A DNA stretch of 64,000 nucleotides from Capsulimonadaceae bacterium. GTDB lineage: Bacteria; Armatimonadota; Armatimonadia; Armatimonadales; Capsulimonadaceae. Shown here piece by piece: positions 31,515 to 35,805 of this stretch (position 1 is its first letter; each line of letters begins with the position of its first letter). The stretch is taken from the NCBI GenBank assembly GCA_965215505.1, contig OZ244065.1, positions 2,624,001-2,688,000 on the forward strand, given 5' to 3'. The translations under genes were made by a program, and so were the position numbers. Below the pieces are notes generated by a model. It made no database searches. It worked only from the letters and a program-made list of their open reading frames with translations, and had not been told where the DNA came from.

Positions 31515-32258
31515 TTAGAGTACGCGGCGGGGCAAGCGCGGCAGGCCGGGCTGATTCGAGACTATGCGGAGCGCGAAACGGCCCGCGCTCCGCAGCACGA
31601 GGCAGAGCCGCTCGGTCACGCGGGCACACCGGAACAGGATCGCCGCTCCCCTGCTGTAGCGCGTCCCGACCTGCGCGCGCACATGAGCGTCGGCCTCGAC
31701 GGTCGTCATGGCAAGCCCCGCCCGGTACAAGCGCGGCGTGGTCATCGCGACGTATTCACTGGCGATGCACAGCATCTGGGCGTCGGCGGGGATGTCCTTC
31801 CCGTGACGCCCGAAGGGGTAGCCGCTGCCGTCAAGATACTCGTGATGATACCGCACGGCGTCGGCGGCGGGACTGAGTACGGGGATAGCATCCAGGATGG
31901 CCGCGCCGACCCGGACGTAGTCGCGCAGGACGAAGCGGTCAGCGGGGCCGGGTGGACAGGCGGGGCTGTTCAGCAGACCGTAGGGGACGCTCACCTTGCC
32001 GATCCCGTGCAGGAGGGCGGCATATTCCAGGGTGCGCGTCCGAGCGAAGCCCATGCCGCGCCAGCGAGCCATCAGCACCACATAGCGCGCCGTCTTCTCG
32101 GCGTGGCCGAGCAGGTGCGGCTCGCGCGCCTCGACGGCGCGGGCGATGGCGATGAATGTCTGCCGGTAGGAGTGGCGGATGCGCCACGGCAGGTAAAAAA
32201 AGATGGCGAGCAGAGCGGAGGTGAAGGCCACGGCGGCCACGATGTCGAACAGCTTCAT
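31515..32258 (-). CDS. HD-GYP-domain protein, degenerate (HD to HG), one TM helix
   Basis: EARE..GH, LLHGIGK, HHEYLDGSGYP. Confidence 0.85.
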   Translation of the reverse strand: MKLFDIVAAVAFTSALLAIFFYLPWRIRHSYRQTFIAIARAVEAREPHLLGHAEKTARYVVLMARWRGMGFARTRTLEYAALLHGIGKVSVPYGLLNSPACPPGPADRFVLRDYVRVGAAILDAIPVLSPAADAVRYHHEYLDGSGYPFGRHGKDIPADAQMLCIASEYVAMTTPRLYRAGLAMTTVEADAHVRAQVGTRYSRGAAILFRCARVTERLCLVLRSAGRFALRIVSNQPGLPRLPRRVL

Positions 32259-32267
32259 GGGAAGGCT

Positions 32268-33818
32268 CTAACCTCCCATCGCCGCGGCCATCGCACCCGA
32301 GTGCGGCGGCACGGCCCAGAGCGAGTCGTCGGCGAGGCCCGGCTTGGGTGCGGGCTGCTGCCCGCTCTCTTCCAGCCGTCTCTCGCGCTGAAGGATGGTG
32401 ATGAAGACCTCCACGACCTGCGCGTGGAACTGTGTCCCGGCATGGCGGCGCAGCTCGGCGATGGCGGCCTCCTGCGTCATCGGCTGTCGGTAGGGCCGCT
32501 GGTCTTCCTTGGCCGGGCCACCCACCATGGCGTCGAAGGCATCCACAACGGAGATGATCATGGACTCGACCGGAATCTCGTCTTCCGCCAGGCCGTCCGG
32601 GTAGCCCTTGCCGTCGGGCCGCTCGTGGTGGTGGCGTATCCAGTGTCCGACCCGGTCCATCACGCTCATCTGGATGACGAGGTCCGCGCCAGTGACCGGG
32701 TGCAGGCGGATCATCGCCCAGTCGTCCTCCGTCAGTTTGCCCACCTTATTCAGCACGCGGTCGTCTACGGCGACCTTGCCGATGTCGTGCAGGATGGCGG
32801 CGTCCTCGATGTGCTGCATGGAGGAGGCGGGCAGTTCCATGTCCTCGGCGATGCGCTTGGCCCAGTGCGCGACTCGGTGCAAGTGCCCGTGCGTGTACGG
32901 GTGCGCCTCCTGCATGATGCGCCCCAGCAGATCCACCCCCTGCCTGTAGGCCGCCAGCGTCCGCTCGTGGGTCACCGCCGTCATCCGCAGGGCGTAGACC
33001 GGCACGATGATGAAGCCGATGCCCAGCCACTGGTTCTGGTCGTAGAGCATCGCGGTCAGGAGGCCGACGGGAGACATGAAAACGGCGCTTGAGAGCATCC
33101 AGCGCACGTTGTCATGCCAGATGATGTCCCAGCGCTTCCCCTGATAAGTGCTGACCAGAGTTGTGGTGATCAGCGTATTGACGATGAAGGCGAGCAGAGC
33201 GCAGAGGGGCAGCGCGAGACAGACACGCCAGTCCGGTGTTTCCCCAAGTCGAACACCGTTTTTAGAGAAACCCAGACGCTCTATCATCACATAAAGGAGC
33301 GCACTGCCGCCAAGCGAGATCACCTGTGTGGATATGTTAGGGATATAATACTTGATCTGGAACCGACGAGAGCGGGGGAGGCCGACGGACCCGCTCGCAA
33401 GCACCGAGACAGCGGCGGCGAGTACGACGGCAGTGGCCCCGTAAAGTCCGGCCATTGAAAAAAGGATGGGGATGACCGGGTAGGTGAACATCTTGCTGCC
33501 CGGCAGGCGTGCGGGCAGCAGACTGACGACAATGGCGAGCGCGGTCAGCACAGCCACGTTCGGTAGGACGCCCGGTGAGAGGGGGCTGTTCCAAACACAG
33601 AACAGAGCGACGAGCAGCGCCCCGCCGCCAAGCCAACGTCGCAAATAGGCGTAAGATTCCCGCGAAGGCTGGCCCAGCGGGGAGTCCGTCGTTTCCGGCT
33701 GTGGTTGTGCGATGGGCGAAGGCACTGACATGAAAGATACAGCTATTCCTGCGGCTAACGAACGCCGTATTTCACGGGGCGGAGGGGCTTCCGGGTGAAT
33801 CTCGGCGGGACGCGCCAT
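32268..33818 (-). CDS. Membrane-bound HD-GYP phosphodiesterase with multi-TM sensor domain
   Basis: About 7 TM helices then PYTHGH, ILHDIGK, HHERPDGKGYPDG, VVDAFDAM..RPYR; start 33818 or 33731. Confidence 0.9.
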   Translation of the reverse strand: MARPAEIHPEAPPPREIRRSLAAGIAVSFMSVPSPIAQPQPETTDSPLGQPSRESYAYLRRWLGGGALLVALFCVWNSPLSPGVLPNVAVLTALAIVVSLLPARLPGSKMFTYPVIPILFSMAGLYGATAVVLAAAVSVLASGSVGLPRSRRFQIKYYIPNISTQVISLGGSALLYVMIERLGFSKNGVRLGETPDWRVCLALPLCALLAFIVNTLITTTLVSTYQGKRWDIIWHDNVRWMLSSAVFMSPVGLLTAMLYDQNQWLGIGFIIVPVYALRMTAVTHERTLAAYRQGVDLLGRIMQEAHPYTHGHLHRVAHWAKRIAEDMELPASSMQHIEDAAILHDIGKVAVDDRVLNKVGKLTEDDWAMIRLHPVTGADLVIQMSVMDRVGHWIRHHHERPDGKGYPDGLAEDEIPVESMIISVVDAFDAMVGGPAKEDQRPYRQPMTQEAAIAELRRHAGTQFHAQVVEVFITILQRERRLEESGQQPAPKPGLADDSLWAVPPHSGAMAAAMGG

Positions 33819-33836
33819 CTTCCTAAGATTTTATAA

Positions 33837-34124
33837 GGGCTGCTGGAGAAGAAAGGACATAACTCGCTCGAAGGTTAATCAGGCCACTGGCGCATGAACA
33901 AGCCGACAGTCGCCTGCAATTTATGATTGCAGGTATGTGTGAGCTAGTCCCAAGGCCAATGCACGATGACGCCGCAGCCGGTGATGGCGGTGGTTACGGT
34001 CTTGATGATGTGAGTGAGCTTCTTCAAGTTAGTATCCAGATTTGTCACGGACGTGCCGATCTCTCGGACATCGTTCCGTCTCCGCTCGTGAGGCCCCTCG
34101 GGCCTCGTTCGCCTCCAGCAGCCC
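33837..34124 (-). other. Putative structured leader/RNA closed by a perfect 12-bp inverted repeat
   Basis: GGGCTGCTGGAG (33837-33848) vs CTCCAGCAGCCC (34113-34124); internal hairpins 34090-34106 and 33913-33933. Confidence 0.5.
33944..34027 (-). CDS. Putative 27-aa peptide MKKLTHIIKTVTTAITGCGVIVHWPWD
   Basis: TTG start preceded by TGGAT, host-like C-ending codons, basic N-terminus, Trp-rich end, downstream hairpin 33913-33933; alternative GTG start 34048. Confidence 0.55.
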   Translation of the reverse strand: MKKLTHIIKTVTTAITGCGVIVHWPWD

Positions 34125-34184
34125 AAACCGTATTCATTATTCCATTGTCACAGTGAAAATCACAGGGATTTTTTGTAGATTTTC

Positions 34185-34886
34185 CTAGAACTCGTCCTCC
34201 ATGAATGCCAGGCTCACGCGCCGGTTGACCGCGTCCAGCGTGGCATTGACGACGGCCTTCCAGACATCGTGGCGGACCAGAGCGGAGCCGGTCAGAAGCT
34301 CCTCGCCTTTGGGGGACGTCAGGGCACTGACAAGGACCGTCACCGCCTTACGACCGGCCAGCGGGACCTCGGTCTGCAAGTCTTCCACCACCATGGTCCC
34401 GTCCTGGTCGTGTGCGTCCTCGACGGCCCGGATCGCCGCCGTGGCGATCAGGCGCATCTGATTGTAGGAGGAGGCGTGGCCGATCGCGATGCCGGTAAAA
34501 AGGGCGTCCTCCCGCTTGAGGTGGACGATGGCTTCGCCGCGACTGCCGGTGACGGTGAGTGAGACGTCGGCGAAGCGCAGGCGGGGCAGCCCGGCCGTGC
34601 TGCCGCCGGCCAGGGCTGCGCGGCCCTGAGTCTGCGCGATGCTGATTTTCTTGTAGTCGAGTGCGATGTCCAGGTGTGCGCGCAGTGCCGATTCGATGTC
34701 CCGCGCGATCTGCTTGGGGGCGCGCTTGGGGTTGACCAGCACATGCAGCTCATCGATGTGGCCCGACGGCCCCAGGACGGCCCGCGTGGAGACGATGTCC
34801 TTGAGCTGACGCACGACGTCTTCGACCTGTTCGGCGGAAACGTAGCGGCGCGAGGTGGTCGCGAGGTCTCCGGGCGGCATATCCAA
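34185..34886 (-). CDS. Conserved hypothetical protein (ELHVL..PKQIARDIESAL family)
   Basis: AAGGAG RBS; motifs LHVL..RAPKQIARDIES..KKISIAQ and LLTGSALV..AVVNATLDAVNRR. Confidence 0.75.
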   Translation of the reverse strand: MDMPPGDLATTSRRYVSAEQVEDVVRQLKDIVSTRAVLGPSGHIDELHVLVNPKRAPKQIARDIESALRAHLDIALDYKKISIAQTQGRAALAGGSTAGLPRLRFADVSLTVTGSRGEAIVHLKREDALFTGIAIGHASSYNQMRLIATAAIRAVEDAHDQDGTMVVEDLQTEVPLAGRKAVTVLVSALTSPKGEELLTGSALVRHDVWKAVVNATLDAVNRRVSLAFMEDEF

Positions 34887-35028: not shown

Positions 35029-35805
35029 TTACAGGCAGAGCGCGATCCCGACTGCGCCCAGGGTGCAGAGGGCGTTGACAACGTCGTTGTTGACGCCCCG
35101 CAGGCCACGGAGCGGCGGCCCCGGCTGGGGCCGCTCGGTGAACAGACCGGGTCGGAGCGGGTCGGGCCAGCGGGCCTGCACGGTCGCCCCGAGCAGGCTG
35201 TCCAGCAGTGACCCGGCCAGCCCCGCTGCGGTCACCACGCCCCAGCCTGTCCCGCCACCCGCGAACAGCCCGAGGAGGGCGGCCCCGGCCAGCGCGGCCA
35301 GCGTCCCCGGCAGGCTCACCGCACCCGAGGTGCCCGGCGGGGCGGGGCGTGCCGTCCGCAGGTCGTAAGGGCGTCCGCCGAGGGCGGACCCGATCTCCGT
35401 CGCCCAGGTGTCGGCGTTGGCGGCGGCAAGGGCGGCCAGGAACAGCAGGTGCGCGTGTCCCGCGCCGGCCTTCGGGACCGCAGCCGGCAGAAGGGCGCAC
35501 AGCGCGGCCACGCCGCCGTTCGCCAGCACCTGCCCGGCGTCGCGCCGCCCGCCCTTCTCGTAGCCCAGCCGCTCCTTCGTGCCGCGCCGCCAGCGGCTCA
35601 GGGCGGTGGAGGTGCCGAAGAACGTCAGCAGGGCCGCGGCCCAAGCCCAGCCGCCGACCCCGAAGATGACCGCCCCGACGCCCCAGGCCGCTAGAGCGCC
35701 GCTCCGCGTCAGCGCCCCCGCCCGGTAGGCGAGGGCCGCGACGGCGGCGGCGAGGAGGAGGCCGAGGAGCATCTGAGCGGGCAAGGATTGATGAAGAGGG
35801 GGCAT
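35029..35805 (-). CDS. DUF92 (TMEM19-like) membrane protein
   Basis: RDAGQVLANG, ANADTWATEIG, GTSGAVS..G, DSLLGATVQ, NNDVVN. Confidence 0.9.
   Translation of the reverse strand: MPPLHQSLPAQMLLGLLLAAAVAALAYRAGALTRSGALAAWGVGAVIFGVGGWAWAAALLTFFGTSTALSRWRRGTKERLGYEKGGRRDAGQVLANGGVAALCALLPAAVPKAGAGHAHLLFLAALAAANADTWATEIGSALGGRPYDLRTARPAPPGTSGAVSLPGTLAALAGAALLGLFAGGGTGWGVVTAAGLAGSLLDSLLGATVQARWPDPLRPGLFTERPQPGPPLRGLRGVNNDVVNALCTLGAVGIALCL

What the first reader, a model, noticed from the sequence alone, without database searches (positions are those of the whole stretch)
33944..34027. Unannotated 27-aa peptide ORF ending HWPWD
Seen: TTG start after a weak RBS (TGGAT), codons almost all ending in C/G like host genes although the flanks are AT-richer, an MKK start, a small-residue/Gly segment (AITGCG), a Trp-rich C-terminus and an 8-bp hairpin right after the stop. 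The ORF track shows it only as the tail of a 60-aa frame. Inference: a propeptide with a leader and a short mature C-terminal signal; the single Cys could allow cyclisation or lipidation.
Basis: partly seen in the sequence, partly recalled or inferred. Interest (0 to 1): 0.75.

Follow-up and report, generated by a model that had tools for sequence, protein, structure and literature searches.

The report
Small peptide gene inside clamped RNA
The 27-codon reading frame is a real, conserved small-protein gene of one soil bacterial family, carried on a compact folded RNA whose two ends pair with each other; what the peptide does is still unknown.

Summary
The ORF is real. It lies on the minus strand (34027..33944, TTG start, MKKLTHIIKTVTTAITGCGVIVHWPWD). 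An intact 26-32-codon ORF sits at the same syntenic place in all 24 relatives analysed, and only this frame is open in all of them (pN/pS 0.58; 0.65-1.34 in the other five frames).

- a promoter-like box;
- a 13-16-bp helix (P1) pairing a segment about 100 nt upstream of the start with one 70-125 nt past the stop (13 of 14 pairs show compensatory changes);
- two covarying 5'-UTR hairpins and an invariant AGCGNAG linker.

Short metatranscriptome contigs of relatives cover only the P1-to-P1 stretch.

The unit is single-copy. It was found only in five genera of one Armatimonadota family (relatives are named Capsulimonadaceae). Wherever the flanks are on the contig, it lies between a 233-aa protein of no known family and a MASE9/HD-GYP c-di-GMP phosphodiesterase gene.

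There is no Rfam, Pfam or NCBIfam match, and only six true hits among 1.84 billion protein representatives.

The peptide has a conserved amphipathic N-terminal helix and a variable aromatic-Pro-acidic tail. Function remains inferred.

The parts
34136..34151 (-). Promoter-like conserved box gTGACAATGGAATAAT (TTGACAATGGAATAAT in most relatives). It reads as TGn plus AATAAT, i.e. like an extended -10 element.
   Evidence: Nearly invariant block in the alignment of 24 loci. In 7 relatives a 20-76-nt insert follows it directly, so the box is not spaced to P1. It occurs once in the genome at 0 mismatches, and twice more at 2 mismatches. The generic sigma-70 scan found no promoter on either strand, so promoter function is inferred.
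34112..34124 (-). P1, 5' strand: GGGCUGCUGGAGG
   Evidence: Pairs with 33849..33837 (dG -28.4). RNAalifold recovers 14 pairs. 13 of the 14 show changes on both sides, 97.3% of cells are paired, and 0 of 500 shuffles reach the observed values.
34090..34106 (-). P2 hairpin: GAGGCCC-gag-GGGCCUC
   Evidence: A hairpin of at least 5 bp lies at this place in 23 of 24 loci. There are 17 distinct stem sequence pairs. The loop is GAG, GAGG, GAAG or AAG in 20 of the 24 loci.
34080..34086 (-). Invariant single-stranded linker AGCGNAG
   Evidence: Invariant columns A, G, C, G., A, G in all 24 sequences. It is the best conserved region: mean pairwise identity 0.80, against 0.69 for the N-terminal half of the ORF.
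34047..34079 (-). P3, a two-part stem-loop: ACGGA..UG.CCGA-gaga-UCGG.CA..UCCGU
   Evidence: RNAalifold pairs at columns 57-61/85-89 and 66-72/77-82. 9 of 11 pairs show changes on both sides, and 92-96% of cells are paired.
34035..34037 (-). Weak Shine-Dalgarno-like GGA (AGG in most relatives), 7 nt before the start
   Evidence: Sequence. A GG is conserved at this place in the alignment.
33944..34027 (-). Small ORF: 27 codons plus TAG, product MKKLTHIIKTVTTAITGCGVIVHWPWD (Cys codon at 33976..33974)
   Evidence: Open and syntenic in 24 of 24 loci. pN/pS is 0.58 with 0 stops in this frame, against 0.65-1.34 and 2-54 stops in the other five frames. Within-clade differences by codon position are 120:83:207. 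GC3 is 0.86.
33913..33933 (-). 3'-UTR hairpin CCUGCAAU-cauaa-AUUGCAGG
   Evidence: Sequence. The CUGCAAU..UUGCAGGCG block is shared by 9 of 24 loci, while other clades have CYGUAUUCAUG at this place. The 3' UTR as a whole is the least conserved part, with identity 0.29.
33837..33849 (-). P1, 3' strand UCUCCAGCAGCCC, followed by the conserved UUAU and a loosely U-rich tail
   Evidence: The HD-GYP ORF's first ATG (33818) lies 19 nt beyond it. In relatives the next gene's first start codons lie mostly 40-110 nt beyond P1.
34185..34886 (-). Upstream neighbour: 233-aa protein of no known family that always accompanies the RNA
   Evidence: No Pfam, NCBIfam or PDB sequence match. 462 homologues, named only 'hypothetical'. 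AF2 model with pLDDT 82. The N-domain is ferredoxin-like (Z 8-9.7) and the C-domain resembles the LeuA/citramalate-synthase regulatory domain (Foldseek prob 1.0, TM 0.62-0.64; Z 8.2). Found in 31 of 71 genomes of the order.
32268..33818 (-). Downstream neighbour: membrane MASE9 plus HD-GYP (HD_5) protein, a putative c-di-GMP phosphodiesterase
   Evidence: Pfam HD_5 at 5e-33, HD at 4e-17, MASE9 at 8e-07. Present downstream of the ORF in all loci examined.

Best explanation
The ORF is a real, translated small-protein gene. It is not a bare ORF in a spacer. It sits on a discrete, single-copy RNA of about 290 nt with its own promoter-like box. In this RNA a 13-16-bp helix (P1) joins the 5' leader to the 3' trailer. 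The 5' UTR carries two conserved hairpins (P2, P3) and an invariant AGCGNAG linker.

Shown here:
- the coding signature of the ORF;
- the covarying RNA architecture;
- the strict gene order: 233-aa gene, then this RNA, then the MASE9/HD-GYP gene;
- RNA-library contigs of relatives that cover only the P1-to-P1 stretch.

Inferred:
- P1 hides both RNA ends from end-dependent RNases. This would make a long-lived, abundant message for a peptide that is made in quantity.
- The peptide is not membrane-spanning. It has an N-terminal amphipathic helix (residues about 2-17), a G-C-G break, and a short variable tail with an aromatic residue, a Pro and an acidic end.
- It acts as a small regulatory protein together with one of its two constant neighbours. 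The most likely target is the adjacent MASE9/HD-GYP c-di-GMP phosphodiesterase.
- The conserved P2-AGCGNAG-P3 module controls its translation, or binds a factor.
For: Coding signature
- An intact ORF of 26-32 codons is present in 24 of 24 syntenic loci, with ATG or TTG at the same place.
- An in-frame stop lies 6 codons or fewer upstream of the start in 11 of 24.
- pN/pS is 0.58 in this frame with 0 stops, the only frame open in all 24.
- Within-clade differences by codon position are 120:83:207, and the N-terminal half shows 73 synonymous against 75 non-synonymous codon differences.
- GC3 is 0.86, like host genes.
- Insertions between the N-terminus and the G-C-G keep the frame.

RNA architecture
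- P1 is found in 23-24 of 24 loci.
- 13 of 14 P1 pairs and 9 of 11 P3 pairs are compensated; 95.9% of cells are paired, against 35-48% when the partner columns are slid; 0 of 500 shuffles reach the observed values.
- P2 is present in 23 of 24 loci with 17 different stems.
- P1, P2 and P3 appear in the unconstrained minimum-free-energy fold of all 24 sequences, by my inspection.

Expression (weak)
- 18 contigs of 83-308 nt from 4 RNA libraries of 3 studies, 80-95% alike, lie only within 33852..34111.
- The loose ends of five contigs read on into the P1 strands, and the contigs stop there.

Distribution and context
- One copy per genome.
- Peptide model: 21 of 23 genomes of the genus and 2 of 2 of a second genus.
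- Three further genera were found by following the 233-aa gene.
- Of 18 real loci from public genome and metagenome contigs, all 18 have the HD-GYP gene downstream and 17 have the 233-aa gene upstream; the 18th contig begins 70 nt before the ORF.

Peptide shape
- AF2 gives a helix over residues 2-21 (pLDDT 72-78) and a disordered tail.
- The helical hydrophobic moment is 0.34-0.70.
- The best 17-residue Kyte-Doolittle mean is 0.35-1.42. This is below the roughly 1.6 usually taken for a membrane span; that threshold is recalled.
Against: - There is no direct evidence of translation. The SD is weak (GGA/AGG), and the window uses a TTG start.
- Purifying selection is moderate overall. The C-terminal third evolves almost neutrally (41 synonymous: 87 non-synonymous).
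- One antisense frame also scores 0.65, though it has 8 stops.
- The non-coding 5' part is as well or better conserved than the ORF, so the RNA may have a role of its own.
- The expression evidence comes from unstranded assembled contigs of relatives, not of this strain. The tool itself warns that DNA can be present in RNA libraries.
- The promoter call rests on conservation only; the generic scan found no promoter or terminator.
- The link to the neighbours rests on gene order and co-occurrence alone.
Confidence: 0.6

Rival explanations
1. Precursor of an exported, possibly modified signal peptide. The conserved N-terminal helix is a leader. The short variable C-terminal part after G-C-G is the mature pheromone-like product, sensed by the adjacent membrane MASE9/HD-GYP protein. 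The layout would be loosely like comQ-comX-comP.
For: - The family shows a conserved N-terminal half and a fast-evolving C-terminal part with fixed anchor residues (aromatic, Pro, acidic).
- A membrane sensor gene always lies downstream.
- The message is abundant and stabilised, as is usual for precursor peptides (that generalisation is recalled).
- In ComX the modified Trp lies 3rd or 4th from the C-end and the mature peptide has 6-10 residues (PMC5331326, passages read). The window's W24 is 4th from the end.
Against: - No prenyltransferase, protease, radical-SAM, cyclase or ABC/C39 exporter was seen among the 20 neighbouring proteins scanned.
- The constant 233-aa neighbour has no Pfam family, and its alpha/beta fold does not resemble a modifying enzyme.
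- F, I, L or T replaces the Trp before the invariant Pro in 10 of the 24 aligned peptides.
- Cys is absent in two members.
- The peptide has no signal peptide.
- ComX precursors are 53-58 aa, about twice as long.
Confidence: 0.17
2. Dual-function RNA. The clamped RNA is itself a regulator: it pairs with target mRNAs, or it binds the co-inherited 233-aa protein or a small ligand through P2-AGCGNAG-P3. It also encodes the peptide.
For: - The single-stranded AGCGNAG linker is invariant in 24 of 24 loci, and the P1-P3 scaffold is as conserved as the coding part or more.
- The RNA and the 233-aa gene co-occur. All 5 genera of the family that have the gene have the RNA just downstream, and no RNA was found in the family's genera that lack the gene.
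- Weak Foldseek matches of the 233-aa model to dsRBD and PUR-like RNA-binding folds (prob 0.5-0.9, TM about 0.2).
Against: - No target or ligand is identified.
- The better fold matches are to small-molecule-binding or regulatory domains, not RNA-binding ones.
- A structured 5' UTR can simply be a translational control element.
- There is no Rfam match even at E up to 10.
Confidence: 0.25
3. Type I toxin-antitoxin-like module. A small toxic peptide is encoded on a stable mRNA that is kept inert by a 5'-3' long-distance interaction, as in hok or aapA1.
For: - The ORF size (26-32 codons).
- A strong 5'-3' helix encloses the message.
- The RNA looks abundant and compact.
- In aapA1 the full-length transcript's fold blocks translation until the 3' end is processed (PMC5416894, abstract read).
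Against: - The peptide is not hydrophobic enough for a membrane span.
- P1 does not touch the SD or the start codon. Pairing between the start region and the 3' UTR is no better than shuffled controls: mean z -0.3, and 1 of 24 below -2.
- It is single-copy and strictly syntenic across five genera, unlike the patchy, multi-copy type I loci.
- The scan found no promoter-like site on the opposite strand.
Confidence: 0.07
4. Regulatory leader peptide (uORF) for the downstream HD-GYP gene. Ribosome pausing at the W-P-P/P-P-P-acidic end would control read-through or downstream translation.
For: - The Pro is invariant in the 24 analysed loci. PP or PPP followed by D, E, G or N occurs in most members; such motifs are known EF-P-dependent pause sites (recalled).
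- The HD-GYP gene follows on the same strand.
Against: - The N-terminal half, not the C-terminal end, is the conserved part.
- The window's own peptide and its three closest relatives have a single Pro.
- The stop codon lies 70-125 nt before the P1 3' strand, so a terminating ribosome cannot reach it.
- The RNA-library contigs stop at P1 and do not run into the HD-GYP gene (weak).
Confidence: 0.06
5. A purely non-coding structured RNA whose central region happens to stay open.
For: The strongest conservation and all the covariation lie outside the ORF. There is no direct evidence of translation.
Against: - The frame is open in 24 of 24 loci down to about 35% peptide identity.
- Third-position changes are in excess, and the ORF frame has the lowest pN/pS of the six frames.
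- Indels keep the frame, and ATG or TTG is conserved at one place.
- The ORF region has no conserved secondary structure.
Confidence: 0.06

Closest known systems
Type I toxin mRNAs with a 5'-3' long-distance interaction (hok/sok; aapA1/IsoA1 of Helicobacter pylori, PMC5416894)
   Same: An ORF of about 30 codons on a compact message of about 200-400 nt, whose 5' and 3' parts pair. The fold of the message is central to its biology.
   Different: - Here the peptide is amphipathic, not a hydrophobic membrane span.
- The clamp leaves the SD and start codon free.
- No antisense partner is seen.
- The locus is single-copy and vertically inherited in a fixed gene order.
Dual-function small RNAs that encode small proteins (RNAIII/delta-haemolysin, SgrS/SgrT, SR1/SR1P, AzuCR/AzuC; recalled, not read here)
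   Same: A structured, abundant RNA with conserved non-coding modules plus a small ORF. Delta-haemolysin and AzuC are also amphipathic helical peptides of about 26-28 aa (recalled).
   Different: There is no sequence or Rfam relationship. A base-pairing function is not shown here. The RNA is enclosed by an end-to-end helix and is tied to a fixed pair of neighbours.
ComX pheromone precursors of the comQXPA locus (PMC5331326)
   Same: A short C-terminal part bearing Trp near the end, variable between lineages. The gene sits next to a membrane sensor gene.
   Different: - There is no ComQ-type prenyltransferase.
- The precursor is half as long.
- Trp is not conserved.
- The sensor is an HD-GYP phosphodiesterase rather than a histidine kinase.
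tmRNA
   Same: 5' and 3' ends pair around an internal short reading frame. The 5' strand begins GGGCUG.
   Different: ARAGORN finds nothing here, and there is no Rfam match. The genome's true tmRNA lies elsewhere, at 152.8 bits. This ORF has its own start codon and does not end in the usual Ala-Ala.

Membership tests
Type I toxin-antitoxin (hok/sok, aapA/IsoA type) | Small hydrophobic, membrane-spanning toxin peptide | tested here: not met
   The best 17-residue Kyte-Doolittle mean is 0.35-1.42 across 24 peptides, and GRAVY is -0.21 to 0.42. Toxicity itself was not tested.
Type I toxin-antitoxin (hok/sok, aapA/IsoA type) | Long-distance 5'-3' pairing within the toxin mRNA | tested here: met
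   P1 of 13-16 bp in 23-24 of 24 loci, with 13 of 14 pairs compensated.
Type I toxin-antitoxin (hok/sok, aapA/IsoA type) | Ribosome-binding site sequestered in the full-length message | tested here: inconclusive
   Pairing between the start region and the 3' UTR is no stronger than shuffles (mean z -0.3; 1 of 24 below -2). Clade-specific complementary blocks exist, for example CAUGAAUAC with GUAUUCAUG.
Type I toxin-antitoxin (hok/sok, aapA/IsoA type) | Antisense or overlapping antitoxin RNA | tested here: inconclusive
   The scan found no promoter-like or terminator-like site on either strand. No stranded RNA data were available.
ComX-type prenylated pheromone (comQXPA) | Adjacent ComQ isoprenyl transferase (polyprenyl synthase family) | tested here: not met
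   The 233-aa neighbour has no Pfam or NCBIfam family. The model is built of alpha/beta modules, ferredoxin-like and LeuA-regulatory-like. The other neighbours scanned carry no such domain.
ComX-type prenylated pheromone (comQXPA) | Conserved Trp 3rd or 4th from the C-terminus | tested here: not met
   The window has W 4th from the end, but F, I, L or T holds that column in 10 of the 24 aligned peptides. The criterion is taken from PMC5331326.
Bacterial lipoprotein signal peptide (lipobox) | Lipobox [LVI][ASTVI][GAS]C | tested here: met
   The window has I-T-G-C; relatives have I-x-G-C or V-x-G-C. The motif definition is recalled.
Bacterial lipoprotein signal peptide (lipobox) | Uncharged hydrophobic core before the lipobox, and an invariant Cys | tested here: not met
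   A conserved Lys at position 9 and a Thr/Ser-rich segment precede the lipobox, and hydropathy is low. Cys is replaced in L043 (GRG) and absent in one peptide of a further genus.
Double-glycine leader peptides (class II bacteriocins / PCAT substrates) | GG, GA or GS cleavage motif and a C39-peptidase ABC exporter nearby | tested here: not met
   The motif here is G-C-G. No ABC or C39 domain was seen among the 20 neighbouring proteins scanned. The rest of the genome was not searched for one.
Any Rfam 15 RNA family (including tmRNA and the c-di-GMP riboswitches) | Covariance-model match | tested here: not met
   No hits at gathering score in the whole window. Only three chance hits with E 1.5-3.9 to eukaryotic or archaeal families in 33780..34200. 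ARAGORN finds none.
Dual-function sRNA | A translated small ORF | tested here: met
   This is an evolutionary coding signature only. Translation itself is not testable with these tools.
Dual-function sRNA | A separate regulatory activity of the RNA | not testable with these tools
   The only hint is the invariant single-stranded AGCGNAG and the conserved P2 and P3.

The most novel reading that the evidence does not exclude
A new three-part signalling cassette of Armatimonadota. It would consist of (1) an end-clamped, very stable dual-function RNA whose conserved P2-AGCGNAG-P3 domain binds the co-inherited 233-aa protein or a ligand, (2) a lineage-variable peptide encoded by that RNA, and (3) the adjacent MASE9/HD-GYP phosphodiesterase, which reads the peptide out. 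That would link a peptide signal directly to c-di-GMP turnover.
Probability: 0.12. Interest if true: 0.85.

Novelty: new variant of a known kind. Interest (0 to 1): 0.6.

Why it matters
Small proteins below 30 residues are routinely missed by annotation. Here only 6 true relatives stand among 1.84 billion protein representatives, and three of those are mis-called as longer ORFs.

This case adds three things:
- a well-supported new small-protein family in a barely studied phylum;
- a new covariation-supported RNA architecture, in which an end-to-end helix encloses a whole small message;
- a strictly conserved link to a c-di-GMP phosphodiesterase gene.

If the clamp does stabilise the message, it is a natural design for a long-lived mRNA. 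If the peptide or the RNA acts on the HD-GYP enzyme, it would be a new kind of input into c-di-GMP signalling. Relatives appear in biocrust, soil and plant-associated RNA libraries, so the element is probably expressed in nature.

Tried and rejected
- tmRNA: rejected. ARAGORN finds none, and the true tmRNA lies elsewhere.
- Known RNA families: none match.
- Start-codon sequestration by the 3' UTR: not supported family-wide.
- An upstream mini-ORF, MSERSARP, inside P3: its AUG is missing in several relatives and its frame relative to the main ORF differs between loci. I read it as a by-product of the P3 structure (my reading).
- The longer 60-aa frame: excluded by in-frame stops in relatives.
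- Covariance model of the 5' UTR (R1) searched in 151 genomes of the phylum: strong hits only in G000 and 5 genomes of the same genus. The three hits at E about 0.01 lie inside coding sequence and are false. Two weak peptide-model hits (L045, L046) lie inside long ORFs and are also false.
- ESM Atlas: no usable hit.
- Complex prediction of the peptide with the 233-aa neighbour: the tool's verdict was 'no answer' (score 0.01, controls not run). This says nothing either way.
- Flanking genes had no cover in the four RNA libraries.
- Earlier findings of this scan: two look-ups returned nothing.
- Literature: searches for Capsulimonas (22 papers; the 15 listed titles were scanned) and for Armatimonadota/Armatimonadetes combined with riboswitch, structured RNA or small ORF gave nothing on this element. 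One search was badly framed and useless. 'ComX' with 'KWPPIE' gave 0 papers, so my recollection of that sequence stays unverified and is not used.
Full report
**1. The observation**

The product is MKKLTHIIKTVTTAITGCGVIVHWPWD. The other details also hold:
- a weak GGA lies 7 nt before the start;
- the 8-bp hairpin is at 33933..33913;
- the ORF list shows only a 60-aa frame;
- GC by codon position is 0.39/0.43/0.86, in an intergenic region of 0.50-0.55 GC between genes of 0.65-0.70.

The ORF lies in a 366-nt spacer between two minus-strand genes. Upstream is a 233-aa protein with no Pfam or NCBIfam family (34886..34185). Downstream is a 516-aa MASE9 plus HD-GYP protein (33818..32268).

**2. It is a conserved coding gene**

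Conservation of the spacer. The spacer DNA matched 21 of 41 related genomes, G000 included: 20 of 23 of the same genus and none of 17 from other genera.

Conservation of the ORF.
- In 19 of the 20 loci returned, an intact ORF of 26-31 codons lies at the homologous place between the same two genes. The 20th locus (L009) is masked with N and was dropped.
- A profile of the 19 peptides found one match per genome in 21 of 23 genomes of the genus. One of the two misses is the masked locus; the other genome is 75% complete. It also found 2 of 2 genomes of a second genus.
- Two further weak hits were inside long ORFs and are false.

The set analysed. I used 24 loci: L001-L008, L010-L020, L038 and L041-L044. 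I left out L021-L037, L039 and L040, which are the same places fetched a second time.

Consensus and start. The consensus is MNTVSKMIKTLSxAIxGCGxxxHWPxx. The start is ATG in 14 loci, TTG in 7, and an ATG two codons further in for 3. In 11 of 24 an in-frame stop lies 6 codons or fewer upstream.

Coding signature.

| Frame | pN/pS | Stop codons (sum over 24) |
|---|---|---|
| ORF frame | 0.58 | 0 |
| sense +1 | 0.99 | 54 |
| sense +2 | 1.34 | 4 |
| antisense 0 | 1.10 | 2 |
| antisense 1 | 0.65 | 8 |
| antisense 2 | 1.19 | 51 |

These values are pooled over 276 pairs. Within nine close clades, differences by codon position are 120:83:207. The N-terminal part up to G-C-G has 73 synonymous against 75 non-synonymous codon differences; the C-terminal part has 41 against 87. 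The pairs are not independent, so these figures are descriptive. They do agree with each other.

**3. The ORF sits inside a conserved structured RNA**

Alignment of the whole region shows blocks outside the ORF that are as well conserved as the ORF or better. The elements, in order, are as follows.

a. A promoter-like box, TTGACAATGGAATAAT (34151..34136). In 7 relatives an insert of 20-76 nt follows it directly.

b. P1. GGGCUGCUGGAGG (34124..34112) pairs with UCUCCAGCAGCCC (33849..33837).
- RNAduplex finds such a helix, 13-16 bp and -25 to -35 kcal/mol, in 23 of 24 loci.
- The 5' strand starts about 100 nt before the start codon. The 3' strand lies 70-125 nt after the stop (37 nt in L042).
- Different lineages carry different but matching strands, for example GGAAUGCCGGGG/CCCGGCAUUCC and GGGGCCACUGG/CCAGUGGCCC.

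c. P2 hairpin (34106..34090). It has at least 5 bp in 23 of 24 loci, with 17 different stem pairs.

d. An invariant single-stranded AGCGNAG (34086..34080).

e. P3, a two-part stem-loop (34079..34047).

Support for the structure. RNAalifold recovers P1 and P3. Counting on that structure gives 95.9% of cells paired, against 35-48% with slid partner columns. 22 of 25 pairs change on both sides, and 0 of 500 shuffles reach any observed measure. P1, P2 and P3 also appear in the unconstrained minimum-free-energy fold of each of the 24 sequences, by my inspection.

What has no shared structure. The ORF and the 3' UTR do not.

Known RNA families. No Rfam family matches, either at gathering score in the window or at E up to 10 in the spacer. 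It is not a tmRNA.

**4. Expression**

The run index listed five RNA libraries that hold a small share of the words of window 33700..34300. I laid four of them, from three studies (biocrust, plant, soil), at 80% likeness or more. Eighteen contigs of 83-308 nt, 80-95% alike, lie only within 33852..34111.

Loose ends:
- Three contigs run on for 12-16 letters into the P1 3' strand and stop there.
- Two contigs run on for 16-24 letters into the P1 5' strand and stop there.

These are unstranded contigs of relatives, and no DNA run was laid beside them. I take this only as a weak hint of a discrete transcript bounded by P1.

**5. Distribution and context**

- There is one copy per genome.
- The 233-aa gene is found in 31 of 71 genomes of the order. 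These belong to 5 genera of the window's family and 2 genera of the sister family.
- I fetched the DNA downstream of it in the six genomes whose genera had no peptide hit. In the three further genera of the same family there is a recognisable P1 (unclear in one of the four loci) and a short ORF:
  - MKNLFGILIGCGHSSFWPGD;
  - MITASAINGCSHIIFCPGD, behind a frameshift in an assembly whose 233-aa gene is also broken;
  - MVLTGACTSIWSPPPGY;
  - MKNIKAMVLTGASQIIIVPPPESAQ.
- In the two sister-family genomes another gene follows directly and no such RNA is present.
- Public genome contigs gave 12 loci. Their records are titled Capsulimonadaceae or uncultured Armatimonadales, and one bin carries an unrelated genus name. 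Metagenome contigs gave 6 real loci out of 7.
- All 18 have the HD-GYP gene downstream, and 17 have the 233-aa gene upstream. The 18th contig starts 70 nt before the ORF.
- A profile search of 1.84 billion protein representatives gave 7 hits at E of 0.001 or less. Six are true members of this family, and three of those are called with spurious N-terminal extensions.

**6. The peptide and its neighbours**

The peptide.
- AF2 on the 19-row alignment gives a helix over residues 2-21 (pLDDT 72-78) and an unstructured tail.
- The helical hydrophobic moment of residues 3-16 is 0.34-0.70.
- The best 17-residue hydropathy is 0.35-1.42.
- Net charge is 0 to +3.
- So it is an amphipathic peptide, not a membrane-spanning one.

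The 233-aa protein.
- It has 462 homologues, all unnamed.
- Its model (pLDDT 82) has a ferredoxin-like N-domain (Z 8-9.7 to the C-terminal domains of adenylate-forming enzymes and CDF transporters) and a C-domain like the LeuA/citramalate-synthase regulatory domain.
- These are common small regulatory folds and name no enzyme.

Wider neighbourhood. The other genes nearby are housekeeping or signalling genes: LepA, a T2SS F-like protein, DnaJ, MPG glycosylase, a Ser/Thr kinase, PP2C and PGK.

**7. Interpretation**

Shown: a conserved coding sORF, a covarying RNA scaffold that encloses it, and a fixed gene order.

Inferred:
- P1 protects both ends of a small independent message and makes it stable and abundant.
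- The P2-AGCGNAG-P3 domain controls translation or binds a factor.
- The peptide is a small regulatory protein working with a neighbour, most plausibly the MASE9/HD-GYP phosphodiesterase.

Rival readings are given with odds in their own section: signal-peptide precursor, dual-function RNA, type I toxin, leader peptide, and pure ncRNA. It lacks any maturation or export gene, and Cys and Trp are not family-wide.

**8. Novelty**

There is no match in Rfam, Pfam or NCBIfam. I found nothing in print (searches, titles and abstracts only). The general kind is known: a small ORF on a structured RNA with 5'-3' pairing. This family, its clamp that leaves the ribosome-binding site free, and its fixed link to an HD-GYP gene are new.

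Noticed in passing
window 34185..34886 (-): A 233-aa protein family with no Pfam or NCBIfam model: 462 homologues, all 'hypothetical'. The model shows a ferredoxin-like N-domain and a LeuA-regulatory-like C-domain. Within the window's family it co-occurs with the RNA (5 of 5 genera that have the gene).
   Followed up: partly
window 31515..32258 (-) and 32268..33818 (-): Two HD-GYP (HD_5) genes in tandem directly downstream of the RNA. The first carries a MASE9 membrane domain. The second is a stand-alone 247-aa protein.
   Followed up: no
L012, L013, L015, L017, L018, L020, L038 (between the promoter-like box and P1): Lineage-specific inserts of 20-76 nt lie right after the AATAAT box. In L018 the insert is a short tandem repeat (gttacgatttgattt units). 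If transcription starts at the box, these RNAs carry a 5' extension before P1.
   Followed up: no
L013, about 40-200 nt after the P1 3' strand: A tandem repeat of an 18-nt unit (ggtaagctattaatgctc-like) lies between the RNA and the HD-GYP gene. It reads as LLGKLLML repeats in one frame.
   Followed up: no
L062 (G058:C4:448000-449600): In this 68%-complete assembly both the 233-aa gene (3 in-frame TGA, split match) and the small ORF (one-base frame break after MTTLSNVIK) are interrupted. This is probably assembly error rather than decay.
   Followed up: partly
24-50 nt after P1 in most loci (window about 33812..33798): A second conserved block, ..gccGACAnT.. (window ggcgcgtcccgccgagattcac), sits between P1 and the HD-GYP coding region. 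It resembles the GACAAT core of the promoter-like box upstream of the RNA, and may be a shared promoter or operator element.
   Followed up: no
L054: One public bin that carries this Armatimonadota-type locus is titled with an unrelated proteobacterial genus name. This is probably a mislabelled or contaminated bin.
   Followed up: no
window 35100..35700: A stretch of 0.78-0.80 GC inside the DUF92 membrane-protein gene, well above the 0.65-0.70 of neighbouring genes.
   Followed up: no
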